A model generated the notes under the pieces. The model ran no database searches. It worked only from the letters and a program-made list of their open reading frames with translations, and was not told where the DNA came from. A DNA stretch of 64,000 nucleotides from Acidobacteriota bacterium (GTDB lineage Bacteria; Acidobacteriota; Thermoanaerobaculia; UBA5066), in the NCBI GenBank assembly GCA_029781975.1, contig JAKOVQ010000010.1:234375-298374 (forward strand), read 5' to 3'. Position numbers and translations under genes: made by a program. Positions 1 through 51,480 of the stretch are shown here, piece after piece (within the stretch, counting starts at the first letter, position 1; every line of letters begins with the position of its first letter).

Positions 1-3000
1 CGAGGTAGGAGTAGGTGTAGGTCTCGCCCGACTCGGTGTAGGTCGAGGTCCGGTCCTCGGTGTCCCAGGTGGTGGCCGAGAGGGTCCGGCCCCAGCCGTC
101 GGTCACCCTCGCGAGGAGCGAGCGGTTGTACCTCCCGGGGACGTACTCGTACTGGCGGACCCGGCCGGCGGGGTCGGTGACACGGAAGAGCCGGTCCTGA
201 CCATCGTACTCGTAGAGCACTGTCCTCCCGCTCGAGTCGGAGAGCGAGGTCAGCTTGCCGTTCGTCCAGGTGAGGTCGACGGACTTCCCGGTGTCGTCCG
301 AAAGGCGGGTGAGGTGACCGGAGGTGTCGTGCCGGTGCGTCTGGACGTTGCCGTTCTCGTCGCAGACGGAGGCGAGGAGGCCATCGATTCCGAAGTGGAG
401 GAAGGCGCCTGCGCCGCGCTCGAGGTAGAGGTCGAAGGTCCCGTCGGCGTTTCGGACGAGGGTGTCGCTCCGGCCGGCTGGCGGGGCCCAGGTCCGCGTG
501 ACGGAATCGTAGGTGTAGGTTGCCGTCTCCCCGTCCGGCATCAGGACGTTTGCGTGGAGGGGCGAGGAGTCGCCGGAGTAGGTGAGCCGCGCCTCCGAGC
601 TGCTCGTCCACCCGCCGCCGAGAGCACCGTCGGGCGCTGGGGAGGAGAGATACGTCCGTCCCACCGAGAGAGGGAGGCCGGAGGTCGGGACGGTCAGGTC
701 GGTCTCGGCCCCCGTGTAGACGCCGGTCCGGACGAAGCAGGGGGAGCCGGTGCAGTTGGAGCACTCCCGGGGCCCGCAGCGGTTGTCGGCGTTGGCGGGG
801 GCCTCGACGTTCACGATGGAGAACGCTCCCTCGAATTCCCCGCCGGCCGGGTCGACGTCGGTGACGTAGTCGGACTCACGACGGACCCGGTAGGCGGAGC
901 CGACAGACTCCACACGGATGTAGTAGGAGCCACGGGCCTGAGGTGCCGCGGTGAGCGAGATGCCGAGATAGCCGCGGCCGGCACCGGCGTTGACGGTCGC
1001 CTCGGCCACGCCGCCGCTGCTCGCGACGGGAGCGGTGGCACAAGGTTCCCCCGACTCCCAGTGGTCGAACCGCGGACAGGTCTGGACGAGGAACGCCCCG
1101 TCGGTCACCGGCTGGAGCGACCCGTCCCTGATGAGTGACAGCCGGAAGGTCGCCGGCCCCGTCGTCTCGAGCGCCTGCTCGGTGATCTCCCGGTCGACCA
1201 CCCAGTGATCGCCGACCTTCCTCCAGAACCGCGACTTCAGGGGGATTGGCTCGGGACCGGGAGCGACGCCGGAGAGCAGGGTCCCGACCTCGGTAAGGAG
1301 GACGAGCCGAGCGGGGTCCCCCGCCGTCGACTTCTGAAGCCACTCGCCCGAGGCCCCCGGCCAGGTCCGGATCGGGAACCGTCCGTCCGTCACCCCAGCG
1401 GTCCCGTCGGGTCGGATCTGGTCGTAGTCCGAATACCTGGCCAGAACGTGGGTCGAGCTCCCCTGCATGTCGAGGGTGATCGTCTTCGTCACCGTGCCGG
1501 AGGACCACTCGGGGTCCGTCGGGTAGGCGACCGAGAGGGTCGAGGGGATCTGGCCCTGCGGGAAGGCCGGGTCGTTGTTCCACGACACCGAGAGGGTGTA
1601 CTGCTCGTAGTCCGGAGGCTGGTGGGTCTGGTCGGAGAAGCCGACGGAGAGGTTCGGGCCGGGTGAGGTGGCGGACGTCGCGGTATAGCCGTACGTCTCG
1701 TTCCCGAACTTGTCGGCCAGGTGGTAGGCGTTGCTGATCCGGTACGGGTTGGTGACCAGGCGGGCAGACCCGTCGCCGAGCGTCCCCGACGGAAAGGCGA
1801 GATACCCGGTCCAGAAGGGGAAGGCGTCGGGGCAGGCGGCGCCGGTCTGGTCGAAGCAGGCGAAGTGGTCGGGCTTGCCGGGTTCGGGGCGGACGGGGTA
1901 CGTGACGTCGAGGATCCGGTCCCAGGTCTCCGCTCCCGAGGCATCGGGCGCGGAGAGGACGATATCGAGCACTTCTGCATCTCCCCAGACCGCCTTCACG
2001 GCTCCCGGAACCTGCGCATTCGCCTCGAAGCCGGCGAGCTCCGCGTACTCCCCCAGGTGGTACTCGAACTCCTCGTTCGGGTCGGTCACGTGTCCCTGGG
2101 CGTCCTGGTCGTGCCAGAGGAAGCTGACGCTGGAGCATTCGATCCGTGAGCCGTCCGGGTCGAGGATGATCTTGCCGGCCTTGGGACCCCCGACGGCCAT
2201 CTGGACGAGGACGGGGTGGCTCGGAACGTTGCCCGTCGCGTCCTTGACCGTGAGCCGCATCCGGATCGTCTTGTCGACCCGGTGACCCTCGATCCCCTTC
2301 TCGGTATCGCGGACGCCAGGAGGAGTCGATTCGCCCGGCTTTGAAGTAAGGTCCTCGAGGGTCAGAGCGAACGGCGCGTGGACCTCGGCCTGCGCGACCC
2401 CTGCGTTGCTGAACGTCCCGCTCTGGCAGCCCGAGATCCTCCCGAGGGCCCCGACCCTGAGGCTTTGCGAGGTCGGCTCCTGGAGCGGGACGGCGGTTCG
2501 GGCGTCGAGCCTTCGCGTTCTGGATCCTGCCGGCTCGCCACCGCGGAGGTTGGGGGTTCGGGTCGGCCGGGTCACCCGGCGCGACGACTGGAGCCCGACG
2601 AGGTCGCCGAAGAAGGTGCGGACGGACAGCGGCCAGCGGCCGGCAGGGGCAAACGCCGGGATCGCTGCCGCTGCCCTCATCGCGGGGGCGGTGGCCGTGA
2701 AGCTGGAAAGGAGGGAGTCCGAGTAGTCCGGCGTCAGGCTCGCCTTGCCTGCCGTCGTGAAGCTCGCTGTCACGGACGCGCTCCCGTCGGGGCCGCTGGT
2801 GACCGTGCTGCCGGAGGGGAAGCTGAGGAGTCCCGCGTCCTCCGGTGCCGTCGAACCGTGGAAGGTGACTGCGGCCCCGGAGAGGGGGTAGCCGCGTGGG
2901 TCGAGCATGATCGCCGTGGACGTCAGCGGAACGCCGAGCGGCAGGGTGTTGCCGTTACCCGCAAGCGGCACGGCCCGGGCGTCGGGATCAGCCGCCGCTG

Positions 3001-6000
3001 GCGCCAGGTCGAACGTCAGCCGGTAGTCGCCCTGCCCTCGGGTGGTCTCGGCCGCGAGGATCCAGAGCCCGCCCTCGGGAAGGACCGCAGCTTCCAGGCC
3101 CGCGTTCTTGTCGGTCCCCGAGTCGTCCTCCTTCCGCAGGTTCGCGTAGATGAAGCCGTCGGGCGCGATCAGCTCGATCTGCGGATCGAGGCTGGACGGG
3201 TCTTCCCACGGTCGGGACTCGTCGATTCGCTCGAGCCTGGCGGTGACTGCGCTGCCGGCCGGGGCGACGAAGAAGAAGAGGTTGTAGTCGCCGAGGGTGC
3301 CATCGGGGTCACCGTTCGGGAGGAATGACCCCGTGATGGTCTGTCCGGGAAGGATTCGAAGGGCCGCGTGGTGCTCCTCCGGGGTCAGCGGCGTCAGGCT
3401 CCGCTGCCGTCCCTCGATCCCGAGCCAGGTCCAGGACGTCTGCCGCCCCGCCTGGTCCACCACCCTGGCAGCGTAGTAGCCGCCGCCGAGTCCTGCGTCG
3501 AGGGCGAATCGGACTGCGCTCCCGCTCGGCTCGAGCGTCGCTGTCGCGCTCCGGGTGGGGCACTGGCCCAAACCGAGGTCGCAGAGCGGGGTGGAGACGT
3601 CGTCGAGCCGGTATACGGGACCCGCCAGGGTCACCGAGAAGCTGGTCCCGGCGGGATTCTCGAGATACGCGAAGACGTTCGCGTCCCCGGGGAGCGCCGT
3701 GGCTGGCGAGATTCCCAGAAGGGCCATCGGCGGCGGGGCCTGGATGTAGACGAGGTCCCACGCCTCGGTCCAGCTGGACCCCTTGAGATACCTAGCGGTG
3801 ATCTTCACCTCGGTCGAGGGAGCCGGGTACCCGCCCGTGATGGGGAACGACGCGCTCGTGGCCCCTGGCGCGAAGGCGACAGACGGGGGGACGATCGCGG
3901 CGACGGGGTCGGCGCTCACCAGGAGGATGGTCGCTCCGCCGGGCGGGGCCGGTCCGGTCGCGGTGATCGTCCCCGTGGTCGTCGCGAACGACGTCACGAC
4001 CTTGGGCGAGATGGCGAGCTGGGCGAGGTCGAACGCCCCTTCCGGAGCGAGGTTGACGCCGAAGAGGAAGGGGGAGTCGACGCCGATGCTGATGAGAACG
4101 TTCGAGGCCGTCTGGGAGACGTAACCGGCCTTCACGAAGGTGATCGTGTAGCGTCCCTCCGTCAGTCTCAGCGAGAAGCCGCCGCCGGATCCGGTCACCA
4201 CGCTCGTGCCGGATTCGACCGCCGTCACGGTGACCCCCTGGAGACCGAGACCGGTCGAGGCGTCCCCCACCGTGCCGTAGACGCTGCCGTAGCCGAAGAG
4301 GGCCATCCGGCCCGCGTCCGCCGTCTCGCCCCCGAACACCGAGACGGGGGACGATGTCAGGGTGTCGTAGTAGGGGGACTTGGACGCGGTGACCGTGTAA
4401 GTCCCTTGGGGAACCGTCACCCGAAAGAACCCCGAGGAGTCGGTTGTGAGGCGCTCACCGGACTGGTCGACGACGACAGTAGCCGACGCGAGACCGGTCG
4501 TCGGCTGCCTCCCGGCTATCACGACCCGCCCGATGAGGGAGCCGGTGGCGGCCAGTTCGATGTTCCCGAGGTCGAGATCCTGGCCGACTTGAGCAGCGGT
4601 GTCGAGAGAAATGTAGGGCCAGCCGTTCTTCGTAGCCGTGCAGGATCTGTACGGGCCGGGCAGGTCCCGGACGGCGAATCGGCCGTCGGCGTCCGTGACC
4701 GTCGAAGAGCTCATCGTGTAAACGGTGACACCAGGGATCGGGGTCGCGCCGACGGAACTGGTGACTCTCCCGGTCAGGGTCGAGAGCGGCTCGAGAGTTA
4801 GAACCACTCCTGAGGCGGCTTCGCCAGGCGCCAGGAGCACCCGGTTGGAGGAATCCGCTCCGAGAGCTCTCGGCTGCCAACCGTCGAGGGAGACGGTGAC
4901 GGAGACGATGCCTGGCGGCACGGCAAGGTTGAAGGCGCCGGCTGAGTCGGTCAATGCGGTCCCCCCCGTCCCGTCAGCCACGACGCTCGCCCCGACAATC
5001 GGGGCGTCCCCGTACTCGTTGAGGACCCTTCCGGATATCGTCGCGATCGGCTGGGTGAGGGTGAGCGCGGGGGCGGAGACCGCCCCGCCGGCCGTCACGA
5101 CGAGCCGATCGACACCCGCACTCGCCCAGCCGCCCATTTCAGCTGCGACCGAGTACGTCCCCGCCGGCAGGCTGAGGGTGTACTGGCCCTGTCCGTTCGT
5201 CAGTGTCGAAGTGCCGCCAGGGACCGCCAGGACCCGAGCGCCCGACGCGGGAGTGGCGCCGCCGTAGACGACCCCGGAGACCGATCCCGGCGCGGTGGAC
5301 AGCGCGGTCAACGGGACGAAGCCAGCGTTCGAGACTCCGCCGACGACGACCGGGATGGGCGACGTCTCGGCCGTCTGCCAGTTCTCCTTCAGGACCCTGA
5401 CGGCGTGGCTTCCGGCCGGCACCGAGAGGAGGAACTCACCGTATCGATCCGTCCGGGTGGAGAGGCCGGAGCCCGGGACGAGGACCTCGGCATCTTCTAC
5501 GGGCGAGCCCGTCGCCGCGTCCCTCACCAGGCCGACGACCTTCCCGCCCTGCGTGAGGGCGATCGCCCCCGTGCTCACGGTGCCCGTCTCGAGCACCGTG
5601 AACGGTGCGCTGCTCGCCGAAACCCAGCCCGGACTTGTAACCGAGACGGCGTAAGTCCCAGGGGGAACTCCCACGAACCCGAATCCGCCGCTGGAGATGC
5701 TCGTGGGCGGAACGGCGGAACTGGAGAGTGTCGCCGTGCCCGAGCCCAGACGCGTGTCGCTGGCGGCGCTCACGATGCTGCCGACGACGTCGTAGTCGGG
5801 GTTGGGTGGATCGAGATAGACGAGAATCGTACCGATCGAGACCGACTCGCCAGCCGTTACGGTCACGGGTCCTTGTGAGGTGGGTCTCTCGGGATAGCGC
5901 CACGCCTTGAGGGTCCAGGCCCCGACAGGCGCAGTGAGGGTGAAGTTGCCGCTGCCCCCTGTCAGCGTGCACCAGCCTGTTTCGTTTATACAGACCGAGC

Positions 6001-7684
6001 AACCGCTGGCGTAGCGAGTCACGGTCCCCGTCACCGTTCCCGTGGGAACGAGCCGGAGGGTACCGACGTCCGTCGTTCCCAACGCCGAGACGGTCACCGG
6101 GTACGCCGGCTGGCTCGCCAGGAAACCAGTCCCGACCGCTCGGACCGTGAGCCATGACGCCGGGTCGACGGAAAGGGAGAAGGCGCCGTTGGAATCGGTG
6201 GCCGCCGACATCCGGACGACGAGAGCCTGGTCGAGGAGCTGCACCGTCGCGCCCGGGGCCGGCAGCCCCGTGGCGTCATCCACGACCGTTCCGACGATCG
6301 TCCCTGCGAAGGCCCCACTCGGCTCGAGGAGAACCGTCCCGACGTCGGTTGCCTGTCCCTCCACGATCAGCCGGGGCCAGGCCGTCTCGGTCGAGTAGTC
6401 AGCCTGCGCGACCTCGATGACGTAGCCTAGGAATCCGGACGGGATGTTCGTCAAAGTGAAAGACCCGTCCGCACTGGACGTGGTGCTACGCGAGGGGCTG
6501 TAGAGGGTGACCGATGCGCCCGCAAGGGGGACGCCTCCCACCGAGCTGGCCACCCTCCCGGTGACCCTTCCGTACATCGGCAGGTGGAGGGGACCCGTGT
6601 CCGTCGTCTCACCGGTCGTCACAGAGTAGTTGCCCGTGGTCGTCGTGATGAAGCCGGACTTCGAGAGCGTCAGAGTCATCGTCCCGGCCGCTACCGTCAG
6701 GTTGAAAGCTCCGGCGGAGTCGGTCGTCGTGCTGTTGCTCGTTCCGGTCACCTTGACTGTTGCGCCCTGGACGGGTCCCACGGAGGCACCGCCGACGACG
6801 GTGCCGCGAATGAGGCCGGCCTGCGTCAGCGAGATCGTCCCGGCGTTCGCCGTCTGGCCGCCGGTCACCGCGATCGAGCCCGACGTCGCGGTCAGCCATC
6901 CGGGTGCGCTGACGGTCAGGGTGACCGAACCGGAGTTTGAAGCCACCGTGAACGCTCCCGAAGCATCCGTGGTCGTCTGGCTCGTGGTCCCGGTCACCTT
7001 CACCGTGGCGCCCGGAATGGGCGCGCCTCCACCGGAGCCCGCGACCAGTCCCGTGATCGCCCCCTGGCTCGTCGCGATGTTCCCGGTAGCCGTCGACTGA
7101 CCCGCGTTGACGGCCCACGGCGCCGTGGAGGTCGTCAACCAGCCCGACTTCGTGATCGTCAGCGAGTAGCTCCCCGCCGGCAGGGAAAGGGTGAACGTCC
7201 CCGAGGAGTTCGTCGTCGCCGTCGTGGAGGTGCCGCTTGCCGCCACTGTCGCGCTCGAGACGCCAGAGCCGCCGACCGCGTTCACGACCTTCCCGGTGAG
7301 GGTCCCGTACGGGACGAGGCCGATCAGCGGGGCAGTGACAGTGCCGGACGCCGGGACCACCAGTGACGGGGTCGTCTGGGTGACGTACCCCGTCTTGCTG
7401 GCATTCAGCGTGACGGTTCCCGCGGCGACGCTCGAGATCGTGTAGACGCCGGAGGAGTTCGTCGTCGCCTGCTTCCCCGATTGCTGGTTCACCTTCACGG
7501 TGACGCCCGACACGGCCGCGCTTGTGACGGAGTTCTTGACGGTTCCAGTCACGGATCCGGCGTCGGCGTGCCAGCTCGCGGAAGCCAGGGCGAAGAGCAG
7601 CAGCAGGACTTTCGGGAAACCGGTCCAAACTCGCGCGCCGTTGGGGGATCCGTTCCGGATCAGAACCTTCTGTCTTGGCGACAC
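1..7684 (-). CDS. Giant secreted RHS/YD-repeat protein. It is partial: the start is at 7684, a GTG, and the C-terminus lies beyond the left window edge. The N-terminus has about 14 tandem carboxypeptidase-regulatory-like (CarbopepD_reg) repeats, followed by a PPC-like domain. RHS repeats begin near nt 700.
   Basis: Found by reverse-complementing and translating from GTG (7682-7684) by eye; AGGAG lies 7 nt upstream, at the complement of 7690-7694. The reading frame stays open to position 1. It is absent from the ORF track because there is no stop in the window. The N-terminal signal peptide is MSPRQKVLIRNGSPNGARVWTGFPKVLLLLFALASASWHADA. Repeats of about 85 aa carry the signature G.V.G.V…P..GA.V.V…TD..G.F.L…LPAGTYTLT.SK.GY, for example GSVTGTVKNSVTSAAVSGVTVKV…SKTGYVTQT. 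A PPC-like stretch reads GDYNLFFFVAPAGSAVTARLERI…GDYRLTFDL. YD repeats read TDLTVPTSGLPLSVGRTYLSS, LYEYDGQDRLFRVTDPAGRVRQYEYVPGRYNRSLLARVTDGWGRT and TYTESGETYTYSY. Confidence 0.7.
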   Translation of the reverse strand, partial: MSPRQKVLIRNGSPNGARVWTGFPKVLLLLFALASASWHADAGSVTGTVKNSVTSAAVSGVTVKVNQQSGKQATTNSSGVYTISSVAAGTVTLNASKTGYVTQTTPSLVVPASGTVTAPLIGLVPYGTLTGKVVNAVGGSGVSSATVAASGTSTTATTNSSGTFTLSLPAGSYSLTITKSGWLTTSTAPWAVNAGQSTATGNIATSQGAITGLVAGSGGGAPIPGATVKVTGTTSQTTTDASGAFTVASNSGSVTLTVSAPGWLTATSGSIAVTGGQTANAGTISLTQAGLIRGTVVGGASVGPVQGATVKVTGTSNSTTTDSAGAFNLTVAAGTMTLTLSKSGFITTTTGNYSVTTGETTDTGPLHLPMYGRVTGRVASSVGGVPLAGASVTLYSPSRSTTSSADGSFTLTNIPSGFLGYVIEVAQADYSTETAWPRLIVEGQATDVGTVLLEPSGAFAGTIVGTVVDDATGLPAPGATVQLLDQALVVRMSAATDSNGAFSLSVDPASWLTVRAVGTGFLASQPAYPVTVSALGTTDVGTLRLVPTGTVTGTVTRYASGCSVCINETGWCTLTGGSGNFTLTAPVGAWTLKAWRYPERPTSQGPVTVTAGESVSIGTILVYLDPPNPDYDVVGSIVSAASDTRLGSGTATLSSSAVPPTSISSGGFGFVGVPPGTYAVSVTSPGWVSASSAPFTVLETGTVSTGAIALTQGGKVVGLVRDAATGSPVEDAEVLVPGSGLSTRTDRYGEFLLSVPAGSHAVRVLKENWQTAETSPIPVVVGGVSNAGFVPLTALSTAPGSVSGVVYGGATPASGARVLAVPGGTSTLTNGQGQYTLSLPAGTYSVAAEMGGWASAGVDRLVVTAGGAVSAPALTLTQPIATISGRVLNEYGDAPIVGASVVADGTGGTALTDSAGAFNLAVPPGIVSVTVSLDGWQPRALGADSSNRVLLAPGEAASGVVLTLEPLSTLTGRVTSSVGATPIPGVTVYTMSSSTVTDADGRFAVRDLPGPYRSCTATKNGWPYISLDTAAQVGQDLDLGNIELAATGSLIGRVVIAGRQPTTGLASATVVVDQSGERLTTDSSGFFRVTVPQGTYTVTASKSPYYDTLTSSPVSVFGGETADAGRMALFGYGSVYGTVGDASTGLGLQGVTVTAVESGTSVVTGSGGGFSLRLTEGRYTITFVKAGYVSQTASNVLISIGVDSPFLFGVNLAPEGAFDLAQLAISPKVVTSFATTTGTITATGPAPPGGATILLVSADPVAAIVPPSVAFAPGATSASFPITGGYPAPSTEVKITARYLKGSSWTEAWDLVYIQAPPPMALLGISPATALPGDANVFAYLENPAGTSFSVTLAGPVYRLDDVSTPLCDLGLGQCPTRSATATLEPSGSAVRFALDAGLGGGYYAARVVDQAGRQTSWTWLGIEGRQRSLTPLTPEEHHAALRILPGQTITGSFLPNGDPDGTLGDYNLFFFVAPAGSAVTARLERIDESRPWEDPSSLDPQIELIAPDGFIYANLRKEDDSGTDKNAGLEAAVLPEGGLWILAAETTRGQGDYRLTFDLAPAAADPDARAVPLAGNGNTLPLGVPLTSTAIMLDPRGYPLSGAAVTFHGSTAPEDAGLLSFPSGSTVTSGPDGSASVTASFTTAGKASLTPDYSDSLLSSFTATAPAMRAAAAIPAFAPAGRWPLSVRTFFGDLVGLQSSRRVTRPTRTPNLRGGEPAGSRTRRLDARTAVPLQEPTSQSLRVGALGRISGCQSGTFSNAGVAQAEVHAPFALTLEDLTSKPGESTPPGVRDTEKGIEGHRVDKTIRMRLTVKDATGNVPSHPVLVQMAVGGPKAGKIILDPDGSRIECSSVSFLWHDQDAQGHVTDPNEEFEYHLGEYAELAGFEANAQVPGAVKAVWGDAEVLDIVLSAPDASGAETWDRILDVTYPVRPEPGKPDHFACFDQTGAACPDAFPFWTGYLAFPSGTLGDGSARLVTNPYRISNAYHLADKFGNETYGYTATSATSPGPNLSVGFSDQTHQPPDYEQYTLSVSWNNDPAFPQGQIPSTLSVAYPTDPEWSSGTVTKTITLDMQGSSTHVLARYSDYDQIRPDGTAGVTDGRFPIRTWPGASGEWLQKSTAGDPARLVLLTEVGTLLSGVAPGPEPIPLKSRFWRKVGDHWVVDREITEQALETTGPATFRLSLIRDGSLQPVTDGAFLVQTCPRFDHWESGEPCATAPVASSGGVAEATVNAGAGRGYLGISLTAAPQARGSYYIRVESVGSAYRVRRESDYVTDVDPAGGEFEGAFSIVNVEAPANADNRCGPRECSNCTGSPCFVRTGVYTGAETDLTVPTSGLPLSVGRTYLSSPAPDGALGGGWTSSSEARLTYSGDSSPLHANVLMPDGETATYTYDSVTRTWAPPAGRSDTLVRNADGTFDLYLERGAGAFLHFGIDGLLASVCDENGNVQTHRHDTSGHLTRLSDDTGKSVDLTWTNGKLTSLSDSSGRTVLYEYDGQDRLFRVTDPAGRVRQYEYVPGRYNRSLLARVTDGWGRTLSATTWDTEDRTSTYTESGETYTYSYL

Positions 7685-7995
7685 AATCTCACTCCTGTCG
7701 TGAACCTCGGCCTCTTCTTCATGGCCGCACCGGCGGCGCGTAGTCACGATTGGGGCGCGAGCCGAGGTCGAATCCGCTTCCTCAACCTATAAGTGGCCGG
7801 AAACCGCGAAAACTCAGACAGGCGATCGAGAGAATTCCGAAGAAAGTTGCCCGGCGGAAGGGCGACGCGGTCGCAACGTCCGGGCGAGGCCATTGGCCCG
7901 TGGGCACGCCCGGGCTCCGACGGGGGCCGGAGCGGGCAGGAATACGGCGAGCCTTCTCGCCGTTACGGAACGGGTTAGCCTTGCGCGAGGAGTCG

Positions 7996-10710
7996 ATGAA
8001 CGAAGCTCCCCTTCCCTGGCACGCCCGTCCGGCGGCCGATGTCCTTTCGTCCCTGGAGTCCCTCCCTGCCGGCCTCGACCCGGCCGAGGCGGGCCGGAGG
8101 CTCGCCCGCTTCGGGCCCAACGTCCTCCCCAAGGGGGAGGTCGAGGGGCCGCTCTCCCTCCTCTGGCGCCAGGTCAACAACCCGCTCATCTGGGTCCTGA
8201 TCGCCTCGTCGGGGCTGGCCCTGGCGCTCGGGAAGGGGGTCGACGCCGCGGTCGTCCTCGGCGTCGTCGTCCTGAACGCCGTGATCGGCTTCCTGCAGGA
8301 GTGGAAGGCGGGCCAGGCGCTCGCCGCGCTGGAAGGGCTCGTCCCAGACCTCGCCACCGTCGTCCGCTCCGGGGAGCGGCGCACCGTCCCGGCCGCCGAG
8401 CTCGTCCCCGGCGACGTCGTCGCCCTCCAGTCGGGCGACAAGGTCCCCGCCGACCTCCGCCTCGTCTCGCTCCGCAACCTCCAGGTAACCGAGGCGGCCC
8501 TCACCGGCGAATCGCTCCCTTCCGCGAAGGGCCCCGACCCCCTCGAGGAGGACGCGCCCCTGGCCGACCGGAGGAACATGGCCTTCTCCGGCACCCTCGT
8601 GGCGTCGGGGACGGCCGAAGGGGTCGTCGTGGCCACGGGCGGCGCCACCGAGCTCGGCCGGATCTCCTCGCTCCTGGCGTCGACCACGGAGGTGGAGACG
8701 CCGCTCACCCGCTCGCTCGCGCGCGTGGGAAAGGGGCTGACCTGGGCCATCGTGGTCGTCTCGATCGTCCTCTTCGGCGTCGCCCTCCTCCGCGGCTTCC
8801 CGCTCGTCGACGCCGCGCTCGCGGCGATCACGCTGGCGGTCGCCGCCATCCCCGAGGGGCTCCCCGCGATCATCACCATCACGCTCGCGATCGGCGTCCA
8901 GCGGATGGCGCGGCGCCGCGCCGTGGTCCGGCACCTGCCGTCGGTCGAGACGCTCGGCTCCACCACCGTCATCTGCTCCGACAAGACCGGGACGCTGACG
9001 CGGAACGAGATGACGGTGACGCACGTCTGGACCGCGGCCGGGAGCTTCGAGCTGACGGGCGTCGGCTACGCGCCCGAGGGACGCCTCCTCCGCGACGGCC
9101 GGCCGCTCGACGCCGCGCCCGCCGACGTGGCGGACCTCCTCTCGGCTGGCGCGCTCTGCAACGACGCGAACCTGGAGCGAGTCGAGGGAACCTGGACCCT
9201 CCACGGCGACCCGACCGAGGGGGCGATCGTCGTCGCGGCCGAGAAGGCGGGGCTCGGCGTCGAGGCGCTGCGCGCCGGCTCGCCGAGGCGCGACGTCTTC
9301 CCCTTCGAGTCCGAGAACCAGTTCATGGCGACGTTCCACGAGACGCCGTCGGGACCGCTCCTCTTCGTGAAGGGGGCCCCGGAGGCCGTCTTCCGGATGG
9401 CGTCGGGCGGACCGGGCGGTACGCCGCTCGACGCCGGCGCCGTCGTCGCGGCGGCGCGCGGCCTGGCGCGCGAGGGGATGCGGGTCCTCGCGGTCGCCCG
9501 GAAGGCCGGCCGTCCCGCGGGCCCGGCGCTCGCCCGCGAGGACGTGGCGTCGGGGCTCGAGTTCCTCGGGCTGGTCGGGATGATCGACCCGCCGCGCCCG
9601 GAGGCGATCGAGGCGGTGGCGGCCTGCCACCGCGCCGGCATCACGGTGAAGATGATCACCGGCGACCACCCGGAGACCGCCGCGGCCATCGGGAGAGAGC
9701 TCGGGCTCCCGGCGGAAGGGGAGGCCGTCACCGGACGGATGCTCGCGAAGATGGACGCCGCCGCCCTCGCCGAGTCGGCGGCGACGCGGAACGTCTTCGC
9801 CCGGGTCGCCCCCGAGCACAAGCTGAAGCTCGTCGGCGCGCTCCAGGCCCGGGGAGAGGTCGTCGCGATGACCGGCGACGGCGTGAACGACGCCCCGGCC
9901 CTCAAGCAGTCCGACATCGGGGTGGCGATGGGGATCACGGGGACGGCGGCCTCGAAGGAGGCGGCCGACCTCGTCCTCACCGACGACAACTTCGCCTCGA
10001 TCGCCGCAGCGGTCGAGGAGGGGCGGCGGATCTGGGACAACCTCGTCAAGTCGCTCGCCTTCGTCCTGCCGACGAACATCGGCGAGGCGCTCCTGATCCT
10101 CGTCGCCGTCGCCGCCTTCCCGATCGAGGACGGCCAGCCGCTCCTCCCCGTTCTCCCGGTCCAGATCCTCTGGATCAACCTCGTCGCGACGGTGACGCTC
10201 GCCCTCCCGCTCGCCTTCGAGGCGCGCGAGCCCGACGTCATGAGCCGGCCGCCGCGGAAGCCGGGGACCCCGATCCTCGACGGCTTCCTCCTCCTCCGGA
10301 CGGTCGGAGTCGCCGTCCTGATGGCGGCGGCGTCGATCGGCCTCTTCCTCCACGAGCTGCGGCGGGACCTGGCGGCGGGGCACGAGCCGGGCGAGGCGCT
10401 CAGGGAGGCGCAGACGATGGCGGTGACGACCATCATCCTCTTCCAGGTCTTCTACCTCCTGAACTGCCGGTCGCTCAAGGACTCGATCCTGAAGATCGGC
10501 CTCTTCACGAACAACGCCGTCTGGGCGGGGATCGGGGCGCTCCTCGTCCTGCAGGCGGCGTTCGTCTACGCTCCTCCCCTCCAGCTCCTCTTCGGTTCCG
10601 CGCCGCTGGACGGCGCCGAGCTCGCCAAGTCCGCCCTGGCGGGCGCGGTGGTCCTCCCCGTCATCGTCGCGGAGAAGGTGATCCGCGCGCGGCGCGCGCG
10701 GGCGTCCTGA
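7996..10710 (+). CDS. Cation-transporting P-type ATPase, type II (Ca2+/Mg2+-like)
   Basis: ATG at 7996 with GAGGAG 6 nt upstream. Motifs present: TGES (TGESLP), the phosphorylation site CSDKTGTLT, MITGDHPETA, the hinge motif GDGVNDAPAL, and 10 predicted TM segments. The ORF track frame begins at 7750, but the N-terminal 82 aa are low-complexity and unlike a protein. Confidence 0.85.
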   Translation: MNEAPLPWHARPAADVLSSLESLPAGLDPAEAGRRLARFGPNVLPKGEVEGPLSLLWRQVNNPLIWVLIASSGLALALGKGVDAAVVLGVVVLNAVIGFLQEWKAGQALAALEGLVPDLATVVRSGERRTVPAAELVPGDVVALQSGDKVPADLRLVSLRNLQVTEAALTGESLPSAKGPDPLEEDAPLADRRNMAFSGTLVASGTAEGVVVATGGATELGRISSLLASTTEVETPLTRSLARVGKGLTWAIVVVSIVLFGVALLRGFPLVDAALAAITLAVAAIPEGLPAIITITLAIGVQRMARRRAVVRHLPSVETLGSTTVICSDKTGTLTRNEMTVTHVWTAAGSFELTGVGYAPEGRLLRDGRPLDAAPADVADLLSAGALCNDANLERVEGTWTLHGDPTEGAIVVAAEKAGLGVEALRAGSPRRDVFPFESENQFMATFHETPSGPLLFVKGAPEAVFRMASGGPGGTPLDAGAVVAAARGLAREGMRVLAVARKAGRPAGPALAREDVASGLEFLGLVGMIDPPRPEAIEAVAACHRAGITVKMITGDHPETAAAIGRELGLPAEGEAVTGRMLAKMDAAALAESAATRNVFARVAPEHKLKLVGALQARGEVVAMTGDGVNDAPALKQSDIGVAMGITGTAASKEAADLVLTDDNFASIAAAVEEGRRIWDNLVKSLAFVLPTNIGEALLILVAVAAFPIEDGQPLLPVLPVQILWINLVATVTLALPLAFEAREPDVMSRPPRKPGTPILDGFLLLRTVGVAVLMAAASIGLFLHELRRDLAAGHEPGEALREAQTMAVTTIILFQVFYLLNCRSLKDSILKIGLFTNNAVWAGIGALLVLQAAFVYAPPLQLLFGSAPLDGAELAKSALAGAVVLPVIVAEKVIRARRARAS

Positions 10711-12713: not shown

Positions 12714-13480
12714 GCGCAGCGGCCGTCGCATCCGCGAAGATCCGCGTCGCCGGAGTCTTCAAGTCGTTCCGGACGAAGAAGGAGACCGTGGACGTCCTCG
12801 AGGGGGTCGACCTCGACGTGCGGCCGCAGGAGTTCCTCGCCATCGTCGGCCCGTCGGGCTGCGGCAAGTCGACGCTCCTCAACTGTATCGCCGGCTTCGA
12901 GCAGCTGACGAAGGGCTCCATCGAGATCGACGGCGAGAGGGTGAGGAAGCCGTCGCGCAAGAGGGTCTTCGTCTTCCAGGAGACCGGCATCTTCCCGTGG
13001 CTCACCGTGAGGGACAACATCGGATTCGGCCTCGGCGACCTCGAGCCCGGCGCGCGGGACGAGGTCGTCGCCCGGTACGTCGCCCTCGTCGGCCTTCAGG
13101 GGTTCGAGAAGGCCTACCCCGCCGAGCTCTCGGGGGGGATGAAGCAGCGGGTGGAGTTCGCCCGCGCCCTGGCCGTCGAGTCCGACGTCCTCTACCTCGA
13201 CGAGCCGTTCGGGGCGCTCGACGCCTTCACGCGCCTCGAGATGCGGCGGGAGATCGCCCGGATCTGGAAGGCGACCGGCAAGACGTGCCTCCTCGTGACG
13301 CACGACGTGGAGGAGGCGGTGGAGCTGGCCGACCGAATCGCGGTGATGACGCGCCGCCCGGCCCGGATCGAGAGGATCCTCGAGAACCCCCTGCCGCGCC
13401 CCCGCGACCCGGACGACACGGGGTTCCGGGAGCTGAAGGACCAGATCTTCGACATCCTCGGCGTCGAGCGGCGCGTGTGA
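12710..13480 (+). CDS. ABC transporter ATP-binding protein (NitT/TauT family)
   Basis: Walker A GPSGCGKST, signature LSGGMKQR, Walker B LYLDEPFGALD, H-loop VTHD. The ATG at 12710 overlaps the permease stop (ATGA). The 5' part of the track ORF (from 12128) is low-complexity filler. Confidence 0.85.
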   Translation: MSAAAVASAKIRVAGVFKSFRTKKETVDVLEGVDLDVRPQEFLAIVGPSGCGKSTLLNCIAGFEQLTKGSIEIDGERVRKPSRKRVFVFQETGIFPWLTVRDNIGFGLGDLEPGARDEVVARYVALVGLQGFEKAYPAELSGGMKQRVEFARALAVESDVLYLDEPFGALDAFTRLEMRREIARIWKATGKTCLLVTHDVEEAVELADRIAVMTRRPARIERILENPLPRPRDPDDTGFRELKDQIFDILGVERRV

Positions 13481-15684
13481 CCGGGCGCCGGCGGCTGCTC
13501 CTCGTCGCGCTCGCCGCGCTCCTTTCGGCCGCGGGGGTCTGGCTCTACCGGAACGCCTCGCTCCCGCGCCTACGGGCTGAGTTCGTGCCGTGGATGAGGA
13601 AGCTCGAGCGGTGGCGCGACGCCGTGGAGCTCGCGCGGAACGCCGCCGCCAGACGGGAGGCCGCTCCGGGCGACCCGGCGGGAGAGGCCGCCCTGAGGGG
13701 GTGGGCCTGGGCCGGGCTCGAGCGGGTCGACGGGGTCTTCACCGACGTCGAGAAGCCGCGGCATCCGGGCGGAGGGATCGAGACCTCGGGTCGCGTCCTC
13801 TTCCTCGTCGACGGCTTCCGCCCCGGCGGGACCCGGGTCGAGCGGCAGGCGTGGGTCCGCGTCGAGTCGCCCGAGCCCGGGGGCGGCGGGGTACCCCGCG
13901 TCACCCTCGAGGGGGGCGTCACCGAGCGGGTCGAGCCTGAGCCCCGCTTCCACGAGGCCACCCGGGAGGCTGGCCTCGGGGCGCCACGGAACGACCCGCC
14001 CTTCAAGCTGACGAATCGCCTCATCGACGGGATCTGGCCCGGCTCCGGGGTCGCCGTCCTCGACTTCGACCGCGACGGCGACGAGGACCTCTTCGTCGCC
14101 GACGGCGTGAGATCGATCCTCTACGAGAACGACGGGGACGGCCACTTCGCCGACGTGACGGAGCGGGCGGGCCTCGCCCGCTCGGCGACGGAGGGGATCC
14201 GCGCGACGGGTGTGGCCGCCGGCGACCTCGACGGGGACGGGTACCCGGACCTCGTCGTCACCGACGCCTTCGGCCCGACGCGGCTCTTTCGGAACCGGCG
14301 CGACGGGACGTTCGAAGAGACGACGGCCGCCTCGGGCGTCGTGACGCGGGGCTCGACGCGGTCCGCCACGCTGGCAGACGTCGACGGCGACGGCGACCTC
14401 GACCTCTTCGTCTGCGTCACGGGCGACTACTACCGCCAGATGCCCGACCCGCCGTTCGACGCCAACGACGGCGGCCGGAACTATCTCTTCCTCAACGACG
14501 GCCACGGGCGCTTCGCCGACGCCACCGCCGCCTGGGGGCTCGGGAAGGCCACCCGCTGGTCACTCTCGGCCCTCTTCGCCGACGTCGACGGCGACGGGCG
14601 GCCCGACCTGGTCGTGACGAACGACTTCGGCCTGAAGAACCTCTACCGGAACGTCGACGGGAGGCGCTTCGTCGACGTGACCGCGAAGGCCGGCGTCGAG
14701 GACCGGGGCTACGGGATGTCGGCCGCCTGGGGGGACTTCGACGGCGACGGCCGGCTCGACCTCTACACCACCGGGACCTACACGCAGTGGGGGTTCTTGC
14801 ACGAGTACCCGGGGCTCCCGGTCCCGCTGCCGGGGCGCCTCTTCCTCCCCTTCGCGGTCTCGTGGATGGAGAAGATGTGCGCCGGGAACTCGCTCTTCCT
14901 CCAGCGGGGCGACGGGAGGTTCGAGGAGGCGACCGCGCGCTCGGGGGCCGCGAAGGCGGGGTGGTGCTGGAGCGCCGTCGCGGCCGACCTCGACGGCGAC
15001 GGCTGGCTCGACCTGGCGACGACGAACGGGATGTGGGGCGACGGCCGCGAGCACGACCGCGAGCTGGAGTTCTGGTGGGAGACGCTCGCCTACTGGGACG
15101 ACTACATCGCCGGGACGACGACGTTCGACCAGAAGCGGACGGCCGTCCAGGGGATCGAGCGAGACGCCCTCTTCGTGAACCGCGGCGCGGGGGCGCCGGC
15201 CGGCGGGACGCTCTTTGCGGAGCGCGCCTTTCTCGACGGCTTCGACCCGAAGACCAACGGCCGGGCCCTCGTCGCCTTCGACGCGAACGGCGACGGCGCG
15301 CTCGACCTCTACCTCCGCTCCGTCCAGGCGCCCGAGGCCCTCTACCTCGGCTCGCGGCGCCCGGGCGAGCACTACCTGAGGCTCCGGCTCGCCGGGACGA
15401 AGGGGAAGGACAACGCCGACGGCGTCGGCGCCCGGGTCACGGCGGCGCTGCCCGACGGCCGCGTCCTCGTCCGCGAGAACGGCAATGCCAGCGGCTTCCT
15501 GGCGTCGGCGAGCCCGATCGTCCACCTCGGCCTCGGCGGGGCGACGCGCGTCGCGCGGCTCACGGTCCGCTGGCCTTCGGGGTTCGTCCAGGAGCTCGGC
15601 CCGGTCGACGTCGTCGACCGGACGGTCACGGTGGACGAGGCGTCGGGGCTCGCCGCGCCGGTTTCCGCCGCGTCCTCGCGCTGA
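13477..15684 (+). CDS. CRTAC1-family protein (FG-GAP/VCBS repeats plus a C-terminal ASPIC/UnbV domain) with an N-terminal membrane anchor
   Basis: The GTG at 13477 overlaps the ATPase stop (GTGTGA). The N-terminus TGRRRLLLVALAALLSAAGVWLY is a signal anchor. Repeated D.DGDG..DL motifs (FG-GAP). The C-terminus GVGARVTAALPDGRVLVRENGNASGFLASASPIVHLGLGGATRVARLTVRWPSGFVQ is typical of UnbV_ASPIC. Confidence 0.7.
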   Translation: MTGRRRLLLVALAALLSAAGVWLYRNASLPRLRAEFVPWMRKLERWRDAVELARNAAARREAAPGDPAGEAALRGWAWAGLERVDGVFTDVEKPRHPGGGIETSGRVLFLVDGFRPGGTRVERQAWVRVESPEPGGGGVPRVTLEGGVTERVEPEPRFHEATREAGLGAPRNDPPFKLTNRLIDGIWPGSGVAVLDFDRDGDEDLFVADGVRSILYENDGDGHFADVTERAGLARSATEGIRATGVAAGDLDGDGYPDLVVTDAFGPTRLFRNRRDGTFEETTAASGVVTRGSTRSATLADVDGDGDLDLFVCVTGDYYRQMPDPPFDANDGGRNYLFLNDGHGRFADATAAWGLGKATRWSLSALFADVDGDGRPDLVVTNDFGLKNLYRNVDGRRFVDVTAKAGVEDRGYGMSAAWGDFDGDGRLDLYTTGTYTQWGFLHEYPGLPVPLPGRLFLPFAVSWMEKMCAGNSLFLQRGDGRFEEATARSGAAKAGWCWSAVAADLDGDGWLDLATTNGMWGDGREHDRELEFWWETLAYWDDYIAGTTTFDQKRTAVQGIERDALFVNRGAGAPAGGTLFAERAFLDGFDPKTNGRALVAFDANGDGALDLYLRSVQAPEALYLGSRRPGEHYLRLRLAGTKGKDNADGVGARVTAALPDGRVLVRENGNASGFLASASPIVHLGLGGATRVARLTVRWPSGFVQELGPVDVVDRTVTVDEASGLAAPVSAASSR

Positions 15685-51000: not shown

Positions 51001-51480
51001 CCGATCGACCGGAGCCACCCGGAGAAGGGCGTCTCCCTCTCCACCCTCGCCTGGTACTCCGACTCCTCCCCCGAGGTCTTCGGCGCGCCCGAGTCGGGCG
51101 CCTCCGCGAACGTCGTCTCCCACCCCGGCCTCGAGGAGAGCGCGCAGTTCCGGACCAACCTCGTCCTCGCCGAGGTGACGGGCCAGCCCGCGACGGTTCG
51201 CGTCCGGATTACCGCCAAGGGCTCCGGCGGCGCCCCGCTCGCCGACCGCGAGGTCTCTCTCCCGCCGTTCGGCCGGGTCCAGATCAACCGCTTCCTCCGC
51301 GACCTGACCGGCCAGCCCGACGCCGAGCTCGTCGACGTCGAGACCTCGGTCGAGGCCGAGTCCGGCACGGGGCGCGTCGTCGTCCTCGCGACGAAGATCG
51401 CGAACGATCCCTCCTCCAAGCGCTCCGACATCTACGTCTTCCGCCCGACGGGGGAGGCCCAGGGGGCGATCGGGTTCTGA
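48097..51480 (+). CDS. Large secreted hypothetical protein (1127 aa, beta-rich, possible adhesin or surface protein)
   Basis: Signal peptide MKMRLPSLRPRLAASFALASLLAAGASRA. It is Gly/Ser/Thr/Val-rich with repeated beta-strand-like segments. No catalytic motif recognised. Confidence 0.55.
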   Translation: MKMRLPSLRPRLAASFALASLLAAGASRAATVTWTGGASGAWETPGSWSAGRVPGAGDDVVIDGAVTVVTQEAATAGTLTIGHQGGAARPSLVVASTLDVGAATLWSGSLIVAAGPVRATAGVFVRGGIYSSAGPLVGNLDNDGGWVNPNGLSVFTVSGSYRQSARSGLVVLANGTVPGVSLGQLAVSGSAILDGFVLVGPYDTYQPAAGDSFRVLAYGARSGRFSYVQVGAFASAVCFRQSYGSGALTLTSTTASLPAPVLTSFPTAPVTAGSRFTLAWSPVFGTAREGRYEVLASAKADCSAPRTFTTTDPSLTVPTEAGQDASYCIAVRAVSSDGCASDASPPVVVQVKAALPSFEVVKPQRPLAVANQGQPATATSSVAFRNVGASPGSLQLAAQGGFFSVAPAEFPDVAPGQTVVATLSFSGASTVQPGIRLGRLVGAWQVQGQPRGTATPVLLAVLPGTPLASSGSRPEPVGTNEIHFRTYGPGSPTPRQATIRNTGSKALRLTPAIGPGGAWLSVSGDFTTPLAPGEERAFTLSVDRTLRSSADGPPPLVTLLRFQNADGTADDTTDFQVFDEELPTPASGSGRPALAPGETSLVFGSSVSAQGAGATFVSDGWIRNGGSDPAPLTVYYSPDGAADADSLKSSFLLPAYTTVRLSDFVQGLFERSGSGHVEVRSPALASLSVRTTVDSLVTKGGIAVRYGAEIPVVTAGQGVGSDEAPGASLFVTGIRGGAGAPFRTNVILAETSGRGATVLLRLRDAAGSVVSEVQKSVAAHSKLQVNATDTTLFPSAAAYDHGSLEVVRVAGTGTVAAFATVIDNASQAYTTRLGRFLPSATAPSSVAIAAPGLRAGTPADAPLLAASATTLRAVLPAAARTEGVNDSFFTTSVSLTNGSAEAASVQLTYRPDVGDPVGPLPLTVAARATVTLDDVVGTFFHLATDTAGTVLFEGDDLARLTVASDTSTPIDRSHPEKGVSLSTLAWYSDSSPEVFGAPESGASANVVSHPGLEESAQFRTNLVLAEVTGQPATVRVRITAKGSGGAPLADREVSLPPFGRVQINRFLRDLTGQPDAELVDVETSVEAESGTGRVVVLATKIANDPSSKRSDIYVFRPTGEAQGAIGF

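What the first reader, a model, noticed from the sequence alone, without database searches (positions are those of the whole stretch)
1..7684. Giant secreted protein fusing about 14 tandem carboxypeptidase-regulatory-like domains, a PPC domain and RHS/YD repeats (probable polymorphic toxin). It is missing from the ORF track.
I found the gene only by reverse-complementing the minus strand and translating it by eye. It starts at GTG 7684 with an AGGAG RBS and a clean signal peptide, and the frame stays open for more than 2,560 codons to the window edge.

The architecture is unusual for an RHS toxin: signal peptide, a long array of CarbopepD_reg-type repeats, a PPC-like domain, a region of about 900 aa with no recognisable motif, and then canonical YD repeats beginning with TDLTVPTSGLPLSVGRTYLSS.

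The toxin tip, and any immunity gene, would lie just outside the window to the left. The array of beta-sandwich repeats may act as a long stalk that displays a contact-dependent toxin.
Basis: partly seen in the sequence, partly recalled or inferred. Interest (0 to 1): 0.8.

Follow-up and report, generated by a model that had tools for sequence, protein, structure and literature searches.

The report
Giant secreted RHS toxin on swappable scaffold
The window holds the first three quarters of a real gene for a roughly 3,500-residue exported bacterial protein: a long rod of beta-sandwich domains carrying an RHS toxin cage, a known kind of weapon, here grafted onto a rare Acidobacteria-specific scaffold that in relatives carries other, unrelated end-pieces.

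Summary
Minus strand 7684→2 is one open frame of 2,561 codons with GC3 0.86. It has an AGGAG-GTG start and a Sec-type signal peptide. Exactly 14 CarboxypepD_reg domains follow, then a PPC-like domain (supported by fold, not by the Pfam HMM), DUF6531 and the first RHS repeats.

The gene is "missing from the ORF track" only because ORFs that run off the window are not listed.

The "featureless 900 aa" is a conserved 970-aa all-beta module. It has 85 representatives at E≤1e-30 among 1.84 billion proteins; the family members whose source is named are Thermoanaerobaculia or Holophagales, apart from one bin labelled Actinomycetes. Relatives share the module but carry at least five unrelated C-terminal tails. 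P0053 and P0055 are 90% identical up to the module end and unrelated after it.

The window's tail is the common Sec-dependent Acidobacterial RHS cassette. A 44%-identical relative, P0273, ends with PLGWVDPLGL, a 155-aa C-terminal domain and a 64-aa downstream ORF.

The window's own toxin tip and immunity gene could not be retrieved. About 930–960 aa lie left of the window.

RHS proteins with beta-sandwich arrays are already described. The verdict is a new variant of a known kind, of moderate interest.

The parts
7692..7696 (-). Shine-Dalgarno AGGAG, 7 nt upstream of the start codon
   Evidence: Read directly from the sequence.
7565..7684 (-). GTG start (7684-7682) and Sec-type signal peptide, aa 1-40. 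Cleavage is likely after ASA36 or WHA40. There is no lipobox Cys.
   Evidence: Hydropathy peak at aa 23-30, with basic residues R18 and K25 before it. Inferred; no dedicated predictor was run.
4061..7552 (-). 14 contiguous, diverged CarboxypepD_reg (transthyretin-like beta-sandwich) domains, aa 45-1208: the presumed rod or stalk
   Evidence: PF13620 E 1.4e-123, 14 stretches. A self-HMM finds 14 units. No DNA-level tandem repeat.
3716..4060 (-). Unannotated Ig-like domain (aa ~1209-1323). It is also found singly or in tandem arrays in many unrelated surface proteins and subtilases.
   Evidence: BLAST HSPs to P0008-P0051 over aa 1208-1300. No Pfam hit.
3401..3715 (-). Module domain 1: IPT/TIG-like beta-sandwich with an invariant Cys pair (C1368/C1375)
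2975..3403 (-). Module domain 2: PPC / collagen-binding-domain-like beta-jelly-roll (aa ~1428-1570)
2723..2974 (-). Module domain 3: Big_1 (intimin/invasin-type) Ig-like domain
2381..2704 (-). Poorly conserved, basic, predicted-disordered linker (aa ~1661-1768)
   Evidence: pLDDT 23-38. Non-conserved columns in A3.
806..2380 (-). Module C-terminal half (aa 1769-2293): about six beta-sandwich-like domains with conserved Cys pairs. It ends at the conserved 'GAFxIxxV', which is the cassette junction.
   Evidence: AF2 all-beta, pLDDT 55-85. Only generic multi-beta-sandwich matches. Conserved in 9-12 relatives. Junction defined.
746..805 (-). Cys-rich junction motif RCGPRECSNCTGSPCFV, shared with the N-termini of stand-alone Acidobacterial RHS proteins
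   Evidence: Alignment to P0178, P0098 and others, and to L010 and P0273.
515..745 (-). DUF6531 domain (aa 2314-2390), the plug-type domain that precedes RHS shells
   Evidence: PF20148 E 2.7e-10.
2..514 (-). First RHS/YD repeats of the shell, cut by the window edge. An estimated 930-960 aa are missing.
   Evidence: PF05593 and TIGR01643. PDB Rhs cores, 8qjb 8.5e-18. Length estimate.

Best explanation
Window 2-7684 (minus strand) encodes the N-terminal ~73% of a ~3,500-residue, Sec-exported, extracytoplasmic polymorphic-toxin protein. The host is a diderm Acidobacteriota bacterium, probably Thermoanaerobaculia.

Shown here:
- A signal-peptide-like N-terminus.
- A rod of 14 CarboxypepD_reg domains plus one Ig-like domain.
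- A conserved 970-aa all-beta module: IPT/TIG-like, PPC/collagen-binding-like and Big_1-like domains, a disordered linker, then about six more beta-sandwiches with conserved Cys pairs.
- A Cys-rich junction, a DUF6531 plug and the start of an RHS/YD shell.

Shown by comparison:
- The scaffold is the constant part of a rare family whose C-terminal 600-1,200 aa is an exchangeable cassette. The cassette is either the RHS cage or one of at least four unrelated tails, two of which carry invariant HExxH motifs.
- The RHS cassette is the same one found in hundreds of stand-alone ~1,240-aa Sec-signal RHS proteins of this phylum, which have mutually unrelated C-terminal tips.

Inferred from established Rhs/Tc/teneurin-like structures:
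- The shell encloses a ~100-150-aa toxin, freed by the RHS-core aspartyl autoprotease (PxxxxDPxGL).
- A small immunity gene follows the toxin gene.
- The stalk and module hold the cage away from the producer, and the PPC-like and Ig-like domains probably bind a target-cell or matrix ligand.

How the protein crosses or attaches to the outer membrane is unknown.
For: Real gene:
- Open frame and codon bias.
- Colinear homologues: P0001 is 54% identical over aa 43-2072. P0194 is 52% identical over aa 40-2332.

Domains.

Extracytoplasmic location: signal peptide and invariant Cys pairs. Diderm host: a TonB-dependent receptor is encoded in the window.

Cassette swapping:
- P0053 and P0055 are ~90% identical for ~1,000 columns, then drop to noise.
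- The module tree is incongruent with tail class. WIN (RHS) is sister to L009 (D tail), and L010 (RHS) is distant.
- P0194 has an HEARH-type tail.

RHS-type members: L010, P0273 and P0239 share the same junction. P0273 has the core PLGWVDPLGL, a 155-aa C-terminal domain and a 64-aa downstream ORF.

Stand-alone cassette family: 669 hits at E<=1e-20, with Sec signal peptides and the same Cys motif. 59 of 73 have the core motif. Only 31 of 1,711 tip pairs are similar.

RHS shell homology to solved cages.

Literature on the shell mechanism and on beta-sandwich N-termini: PMC6425310, PMC13018210.
Against: - The window stops 250 aa into the RHS part. Its own RHS core, toxin and immunity gene were not seen.
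- No toxin function is demonstrated for any family member. The alternative tails and P0273's C-terminal domain have no Pfam or PDB match.
- No outer-membrane export or anchoring component was found in the 56 kb upstream. There is no lipobox and no recognised anchor domain.
- The AF2 model of the module's second half is only moderately confident.
- The signal peptide was judged by eye and hydropathy only.
Confidence: 0.7

Rival explanations
1. It is a non-toxic structural adhesin, S-layer-like or matrix protein. The stalk, PPC-like and Ig-like domains mediate attachment. The RHS shell serves as a scaffold or interaction domain, as in metazoan teneurins, and not as a toxin container.
For: All recognisable domains in the window are adhesin or S-layer-type beta-sandwiches. 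There is partial similarity to an anammox S-layer glycoprotein model, far below its cut-off. No toxin domain was seen. Teneurins show that RHS shells can be repurposed (PMC13018210).
Against: In bacteria RHS shells characteristically enclose toxins. The RHS-type relative P0273 keeps the autoproteolysis motif and a distinct C-terminal domain, followed by a small ORF. The stand-alone cassette family has hypervariable tips. Sharp cassette replacement on a conserved scaffold is the polymorphic-toxin signature.
Confidence: 0.12
2. The scaffold family is mainly a secreted hydrolase or nutrient-acquisition platform. PPC domains are typical of secreted proteases, and HExxH tails would be metalloproteases. 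The RHS version would be one odd fusion.
For: PPC/CBD-like fold. Invariant HExxH in two tail classes.
Against: HExxH is motif-level evidence only, with no Pfam or PDB support. At least four members carry the RHS cassette at the identical junction. RHS cages are not known as nutrient enzymes. The tails are swapped like toxin cassettes.
Confidence: 0.08
3. It is a bacterial teneurin-like protein (TLP) in the strict sense: FN-plug + NHL propeller + YD shell.
For: Same overall logic: adhesion domains, then TTR-like domains, an inserted region, a plug and a YD shell. TLPs are reported in Acidobacteriota (PMC13018210). PDB teneurin-like proteins 9ifo and 9pt5 match the RHS segment.
Against: There is no NHL hit, and no room for an NHL between DUF6531 (ends aa 2390) and the first YD repeats. 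Neither L010's 719-aa tail nor P0273 has an NHL. The best PDB matches are T6SS-type Rhs cores, not TLPs. The module profile does not match the TLP chains in the PDB.
Confidence: 0.03
4. It is a T6SS-delivered Rhs effector.
For: The closest solved relatives of the RHS segment are T6SS Rhs cores (8qjb, 8qjd, Tre23, Tse15).
Against: Sec-type signal peptide. No PAAR or VgrG-binding domain. No T6SS genes in 56 kb. A 2,300-aa beta-sandwich N-terminus is incompatible with known T6SS loading. The stand-alone cousins also carry Sec signals.
Confidence: 0.03
5. It is a pseudogene or an assembly chimera.
For: Family contigs often break at the module end. The product was absent from the word-indexed protein database.
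Against: 2,561 stop-free codons with coding GC3. It is colinear with P0001 and P0194. The same module-to-RHS junction appears in three independent assemblies. The database absence is better explained by the index lacking very long products: no hit above 2,321 aa appeared, although 4,000-5,000-aa relatives exist.
Confidence: 0.03

Closest known systems
Stand-alone Sec-signal DUF6531-RHS proteins of Acidobacteriota (~1,240 aa; e.g. P0098, P0086, P0116 'RHS repeat-associated core domain-containing protein [Thermoanaerobaculia]')
   Same: 40-46% identical to window aa ~2296-2561. They share the CxPxxCxxCxxSPC[YF]V junction motif, DUF6531 and the RHS shell. Most have a PxxxxDPxGL core and hypervariable ~116-aa tips.
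   Different: They have only a signal peptide and a ~45-aa Pro/Cys linker before the motif. The window protein replaces that with ~2,300 aa of stalk and module.
Bacterial teneurin-like proteins (TLPs; Jackson 2019 PMC6425310; Raoelijaona 2026 PMC13018210; PDB 9pt5, 9ifo)
   Same: Sec-dependent, single-chain proteins. They have N-terminal beta-sandwich adhesion arrays (CarboxypepD_reg-like domains are explicitly mentioned), TTR-like domains, an inserted region before the plug, a YD shell, a polymorphic C-terminal toxin and immunity genes. They occur in Acidobacteriota.
   Different: The window protein has no NHL propeller. Its module is not detectably related to TLP sequences in the PDB. Its scaffold also carries non-RHS tails.
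WapA of Bacillus subtilis (Sec-dependent, wall-associated RHS toxin; from my own knowledge)
   Same: Signal peptide, then a surface-association region, an RHS shell, and a polymorphic C-terminal toxin with an immunity gene.
   Different: WapA is from a Gram-positive host and has wall-binding repeats instead of CarboxypepD_reg domains and the module. It is much shorter.
T6SS Rhs effectors (PDB 8qjb, 8qjc, 8qjd, 7pq5 Tre23, 8uxt Tse15, 8cp6 Tse5)
   Same: These are the best sequence matches of the RHS segment among solved structures (E 8.5e-18 to 5e-8). They share the cage-plus-autoproteolysis principle.
   Different: They are delivered by T6SS through PAAR/VgrG and have no signal peptide and no giant beta-sandwich N-terminus.
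P0034: CarboxypepD_reg + TIG + 16 RHS repeats + Laminin_G_3 + RHS core + Ntox44 (2,282 aa, NCBI)
   Same: It shows that CarboxypepD_reg domains upstream of an RHS toxin already exist in the databases.
   Different: It has one CarboxypepD_reg domain, not 14, and lacks the 970-aa module.

Membership tests
RHS/YD-repeat polymorphic toxins | RHS/YD repeats forming the shell | tested here: met
   PF05593 E 7.1e-9 with 3 stretches; TIGR01643 E 2.4e-6. PDB Rhs cores down to 8.5e-18. Only the first ~170 aa of the shell lie in the window.
RHS/YD-repeat polymorphic toxins | N-terminal plug domain (DUF6531) before the shell | tested here: met
   PF20148 at aa 2314-2390, E 2.7e-10, above the gathering score.
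RHS/YD-repeat polymorphic toxins | RHS-associated core with the PxxxxDPxGL autoproteolysis motif | not testable with these tools
   It lies left of window position 1, and the contig could not be retrieved. It is present in the 44%-identical relative P0273 (PLGWVDPLGL) and in 59 of 73 stand-alone cousins.
RHS/YD-repeat polymorphic toxins | Variable C-terminal toxin domain followed by a small immunity gene | not testable with these tools
   It lies outside the window. In relatives, P0273 has a 155-aa C-terminal domain and a 64-aa ORF 52 nt downstream. Tips of the cassette family are mutually unrelated.
Polymorphic toxin systems (general) | Conserved N-terminal or central region with abrupt replacement of the C-terminal region between close relatives | tested here: met
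   P0053 and P0055 are ~90% identical, dropping to noise at the module end. Tail class is incongruent with the module tree. P0194 is 52% identical over 2,300 aa but has a different tail.
Bacterial teneurin-like proteins (TLP) | NHL beta-propeller between the FN-plug and the YD shell | tested here: not met
   No NHL hit. YD repeats begin directly after DUF6531. L010's tail and P0273 also lack an NHL.
Bacterial teneurin-like proteins (TLP) | TIP domain between the TTR and the FN-plug | tested here: inconclusive
   The 970-aa module occupies the equivalent position. Its profile finds nothing in the PDB, which includes TLP chains 9pt5 and 9ifo. No TIP model was available.
T6SS Rhs effectors | PAAR or VgrG-interaction N-terminus and linkage to T6SS genes; no signal peptide | tested here: not met
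   No PAAR in Pfam. Sec-type N-terminus. No T6SS genes in window 7.7-64 kb. The left flank is unseen.
CarboxypepD_reg (PF13620) | HMM match above the gathering score | tested here: met
   403.9 bits against a cut-off of 32.3, with 14 stretches.
PPC, bacterial pre-peptidase C-terminal domain (PF04151) | HMM match | tested here: not met
   No hit at E<=0.1 on the whole protein, or at E<=10 on the isolated segment. The family profile finds no PPC chain in the PDB by sequence.
PPC, bacterial pre-peptidase C-terminal domain (PF04151) | Beta-jelly-roll fold of collagenase CBD / PPC domains | tested here: met
Two-partner secretion / CdiA-type contact-dependent inhibition | N-terminal TPS (haemagglutination activity) domain and FHA repeats | tested here: not met
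   No such Pfam hits in the 2,561 aa.

The most novel reading that the evidence does not exclude
The 970-aa module plus its beta-sandwich stalk may define a previously undescribed, Acidobacteriota-specific effector-display platform that is Sec-dependent. On it, a whole RHS cage is only one of at least five interchangeable payload cassettes; the others include two HExxH types and a possible cell-wall hydrolase type. This would imply a delivery or export route across a diderm envelope that is neither T6SS, TPS/CdiA nor the lipoprotein-anchored TLP route. The PPC/Ig-like module would act as the common target-recognition or translocation device.
Probability: 0.3. Interest if true: 0.65.

Novelty: new variant of a known kind. 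Interest (0 to 1): 0.45.

Why it matters
Acidobacteriota are abundant soil and sediment bacteria, and their interbacterial weaponry is almost unstudied. This locus shows two things.

- RHS toxins in this phylum are typically Sec-exported. There is a large stand-alone family, and it is not linked to T6SS here.
- One lineage has mounted that cassette, interchangeably with unrelated tails, on a multi-thousand-residue scaffold with a conserved, unannotated 970-aa module.

If the module is a shared targeting or delivery device, it offers a handle on how giant effectors leave and act from a diderm cell without a dedicated injection system. It also offers a source of new effector and immunity families, because none of the tails matches Pfam or the PDB.

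In practical terms, such genes are systematically lost. They run off contigs, break assemblies at the variable junction, and appear to be absent from a word-indexed protein database.

Tried and rejected
Extending left of the window:
- The GTDB-representative scan and the metagenome scan found relatives but not the window's own contig.
- Exact look-ups show the genome is in the collection, as an NCBI contig of 372,993 bp and as Logan assemblies of SRR15686344. Only short Logan contigs could be fetched (L013, L014).
- An NCBI-only neighbour was 'not on record'.
- Four candidate starts of the adjacent P-type ATPase were not on record.
- The first database search with the window's C-terminal 1,361 aa gave no self-hit.

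Function of the module and tails by sequence:
- PDB profile searches of the module, the PPC segment, the L009 and L005 tails and both HExxH tail alignments found nothing significant.
- Pfam on the five tails and on the downstream ORFs found nothing.
- My motif-level idea that L009's tail is lytic-transglycosylase-like stays unsupported.

Other negative results:
- Foldseek on the whole module gave only generic beta-sandwich strings with TM ~0.1.
- No partner genes are shared between the flanks of family loci and the window.
- No Rfam family in the window, no sigma-70-like promoter or terminator at 7500-8100, and no DNA tandem repeat in 1-7800.

It was rerun with A2.

Readings considered and rejected: TLP membership (no NHL), T6SS effector, CdiA/TPS, and pseudogene.
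Full report
**1. The observation**

Translating window 1-7684 on the minus strand gives 2,561 codons without a stop. The window is 72.4% GC. By my arithmetic a stop is then expected about once per 60 codons, so an open frame of this length is not chance. Its GC1/2/3 of 0.62/0.58/0.86 is the coding pattern of the neighbouring genes.

The GTG at 7684 sits 7 nt after AGGAG (7692-7696). The frame is closed upstream at 7789, and the only other in-frame start (GTG 7747) has no RBS.

The N-terminus has a basic n-region, a hydrophobic core (aa 26-36) and ASA/WHA-type cleavage sites. It has no lipobox cysteine.

The ORF lister does not report ORFs that run off an end of the source (tool description). 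That fully explains why the gene was "missing from the ORF track".

**2. Domain content**

Pfam finds CarboxypepD_reg at E 1.4e-123 in 14 stretches, DUF6531 at aa 2314-2390 and RHS_repeat. NCBIfam adds the YD repeat model.

An HMM built from the protein itself places 14 contiguous units at aa 45-1208. They are old and diverged, with no DNA-level tandem repeat.

The last 270 aa match solved Rhs cages: 8qjb at 8.5e-18, Tre23, Tse15, Tse5, and the bacterial teneurin-like proteins 9ifo and 9pt5.

**3. The "featureless" 900 aa is a conserved module**

Residues 1324-2293 are shared at 36-64% identity with a small set of proteins. An exhaustive profile search of 1.84 billion representatives finds 294 at E≤1e-3 and 85 at E≤1e-30. 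Those family members whose source is named are Thermoanaerobaculia or Holophagales, apart from one bin labelled Actinomycetes.

- an IPT/TIG-like domain,
- the PPC-like domain,
- a Big_1 (intimin-type) domain,
- a ~100-aa disordered basic linker,
- about six further beta-sandwich-like domains, at moderate confidence.

No catalytic fold appears, and there is no PDB sequence relative. Three cysteine pairs are invariant or nearly so, which fits an oxidising, extracytoplasmic location.

**4. The scaffold is constant and the end is a cassette**

Complete or C-terminally intact relatives carry different tails after the same module end ('GAFxIxxV').

| Tail class | Members |
|---|---|
| RHS | window, L010, P0273, P0239 |
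| HETAHGFG type | L005, P0053 |
| HEARH type | P0002, P0056, P0194 |
| L009 type | L009 |
| P0055 type | P0055 |

- P0053 and P0055 are ~90% identical for ~1,000 alignment columns, then fall to noise exactly at the module end.
- Tail class is incongruent with the module tree. The window protein (RHS) groups with L009 (63%, other tail) and P0194 (52% over aa 40-2332, HEARH tail). The RHS-bearing L010 is only 41% identical.
- Three independent MAG contigs end within a few codons of this junction. This is what strain-level variation or repeated sequence does to assemblies.
- N-terminal stalks also vary: 5-26 CarboxypepD_reg domains, other Ig-like arrays, or a propeller.

**5. Origin of the RHS cassette**

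Searching with L010's longer RHS tail returned 669 proteins at E≤1e-20. Most are ~1,230-1,257-aa DUF6531+RHS proteins from Acidobacteriota on long contigs.

They begin with a Sec signal peptide, a short Pro/Cys linker and the same CxPxxCxxCxxSPC[YF]V motif that forms the window protein's junction. They are 40-46% identical to window aa ~2296-2561.

Among the full-length ones, 59 of 73 have a PxxxxDPxG[L] core. It is followed by a tip of median length 116 aa, and only 31 of 1,711 tip pairs are similar.

The distance from the motif to the protein end is ~1,190 aa. P0273 continues 961 aa past the point that corresponds to the window edge. The window protein is therefore predicted to be ~3,500 aa, with ~930-960 aa missing.

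P0273 is 44% identical across the junction. It ends with PLGWVDPLGL, a 155-aa C-terminal domain with no Pfam match, and a 64-aa acidic ORF 52 nt downstream.

**6. Context**

The upstream neighbour is a divergently transcribed P-type ATPase. An ABC transporter, an FG-GAP/ASPIC protein, a halogenase-like protein, a kinase, a TonB receptor, SMC, Lon and others follow. There is no T6SS, T2SS or TPS component in 56 kb. No flanking partner gene is shared among family loci. The left flank is unseen.

**7. Mechanism**

The shown, compared and inferred steps are set out under the best explanation. The export route across the outer membrane, the anchoring, the target and the toxin activity remain unknown.

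**8. Comparison with known systems**

Beta-sandwich arrays upstream of RHS shells are described for bacterial teneurin-like proteins, and carboxypeptidase regulatory-like domains are explicitly mentioned. These occur in Acidobacteria among other phyla (PMC6425310), and their polymorphic C-terminal toxins and immunity proteins have been shown experimentally (PMC13018210). P0034 is a complete CarboxypepD_reg+RHS+Ntox44 protein.

The window protein is not a TLP in the strict sense, because it has no NHL propeller. It is not a T6SS or CdiA-type effector either.

Three things are not described, as far as I could search:
- the 970-aa module;
- its use as a common scaffold for RHS and non-RHS cassettes;
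- the large Sec-signal stand-alone RHS family that donated the cassette.

**9. Limits**

The window's own RHS core, toxin and immunity gene were not seen. The genome is in the collection as a 372,993-bp NCBI contig, but it could not be fetched. No function is demonstrated for any tail. The signal peptide and the taxonomy of the window organism are inferences.

**Verdict**

It is a new variant of a known kind, of moderate interest (0.45).

Noticed in passing
L003 (ends 3181 of 3183), L004 (8772 of 8790), L007 (12943 of 12945): Three independent MAG contigs stop within a few codons of the module's C-terminal end. That is exactly where the tails are swapped, which suggests strain-level cassette heterogeneity or repeated sequence that breaks assemblies.
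   Followed up: partly
P0074-P0193; window 746-805 for the shared motif: There is a very large family of ~1,240-aa stand-alone RHS proteins in Acidobacteriota (669 hits at E<=1e-20). They have Sec signal peptides, a Pro/Cys-rich linker, a conserved CxPxxCxxCxxSPC[YF]V motif before DUF6531, and mutually unrelated ~116-aa tips. RHS toxins in this phylum therefore appear to be generally Sec-dependent.
   Followed up: partly
window 3716-4060 (aa ~1209-1323): An Ig-like domain with no Pfam model recurs singly or in long tandem arrays in P0003, P0058 and P0059. It also occurs at the C-termini of subtilases and FG-GAP/VCBS proteins.
   Followed up: no
No protein longer than 2,321 aa appears in any result of the word-indexed protein database. 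Yet L005, L009 and L010 (NCBI and JGI contigs) encode products of 4,048 to more than 5,043 aa, and the exhaustive representative library does hold proteins of 3,500-4,650 aa. Giant proteins seem to be missing from that index, which explains the absent self-hit.
   Followed up: partly
L005 versus P0053: The HETAHGFG-type tail is more conserved between these two proteins (51% identity) than their modules are (38%). This hints at lateral exchange of the tail or at stronger constraint on it.
   Followed up: no
window 48097-51480 (+), 51487-53787 (-), 60226-62877 (-): Three large ORFs (1,127, 766 and 883 aa) show coding-type GC3 but have no Pfam hit at 1e-5.
   Followed up: no
window 55298-58795 (+) and 58829-60073 (+): A 1,165-aa TPR + CHAT (caspase-like) protein is followed directly by an AAA_14/DUF4143 ATPase. 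This could be a signalling or defence-type pair.
   Followed up: no
L006 (JAKAED010000168.1): One family member sits in a bin labelled Actinomycetes, whereas all the other named members are Thermoanaerobaculia or Holophagales. Mis-binning or horizontal transfer could explain it.
   Followed up: no
L001 8294-10558: The complete HEARH-tailed family member P0002 lies about 2 kb from IS21-type transposase genes (IstB and a Mu-transposase C-terminal domain) and a weak VapB_antitoxin hit.
   Followed up: no
window 12997-15684 (+): An 895-aa FG-GAP/VCBS + ASPIC/UnbV (CRTAC1-like) protein is encoded near the giant gene. This is another probable extracellular beta-propeller protein.
   Followed up: no
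L009 13103-14395: A 430-aa ORF overlaps the stop codon of L009's 4,048-aa family member. It has no Pfam match and only a marginal FG-GAP signal. It is too large for a typical immunity protein, and its role is unknown.
   Followed up: partly
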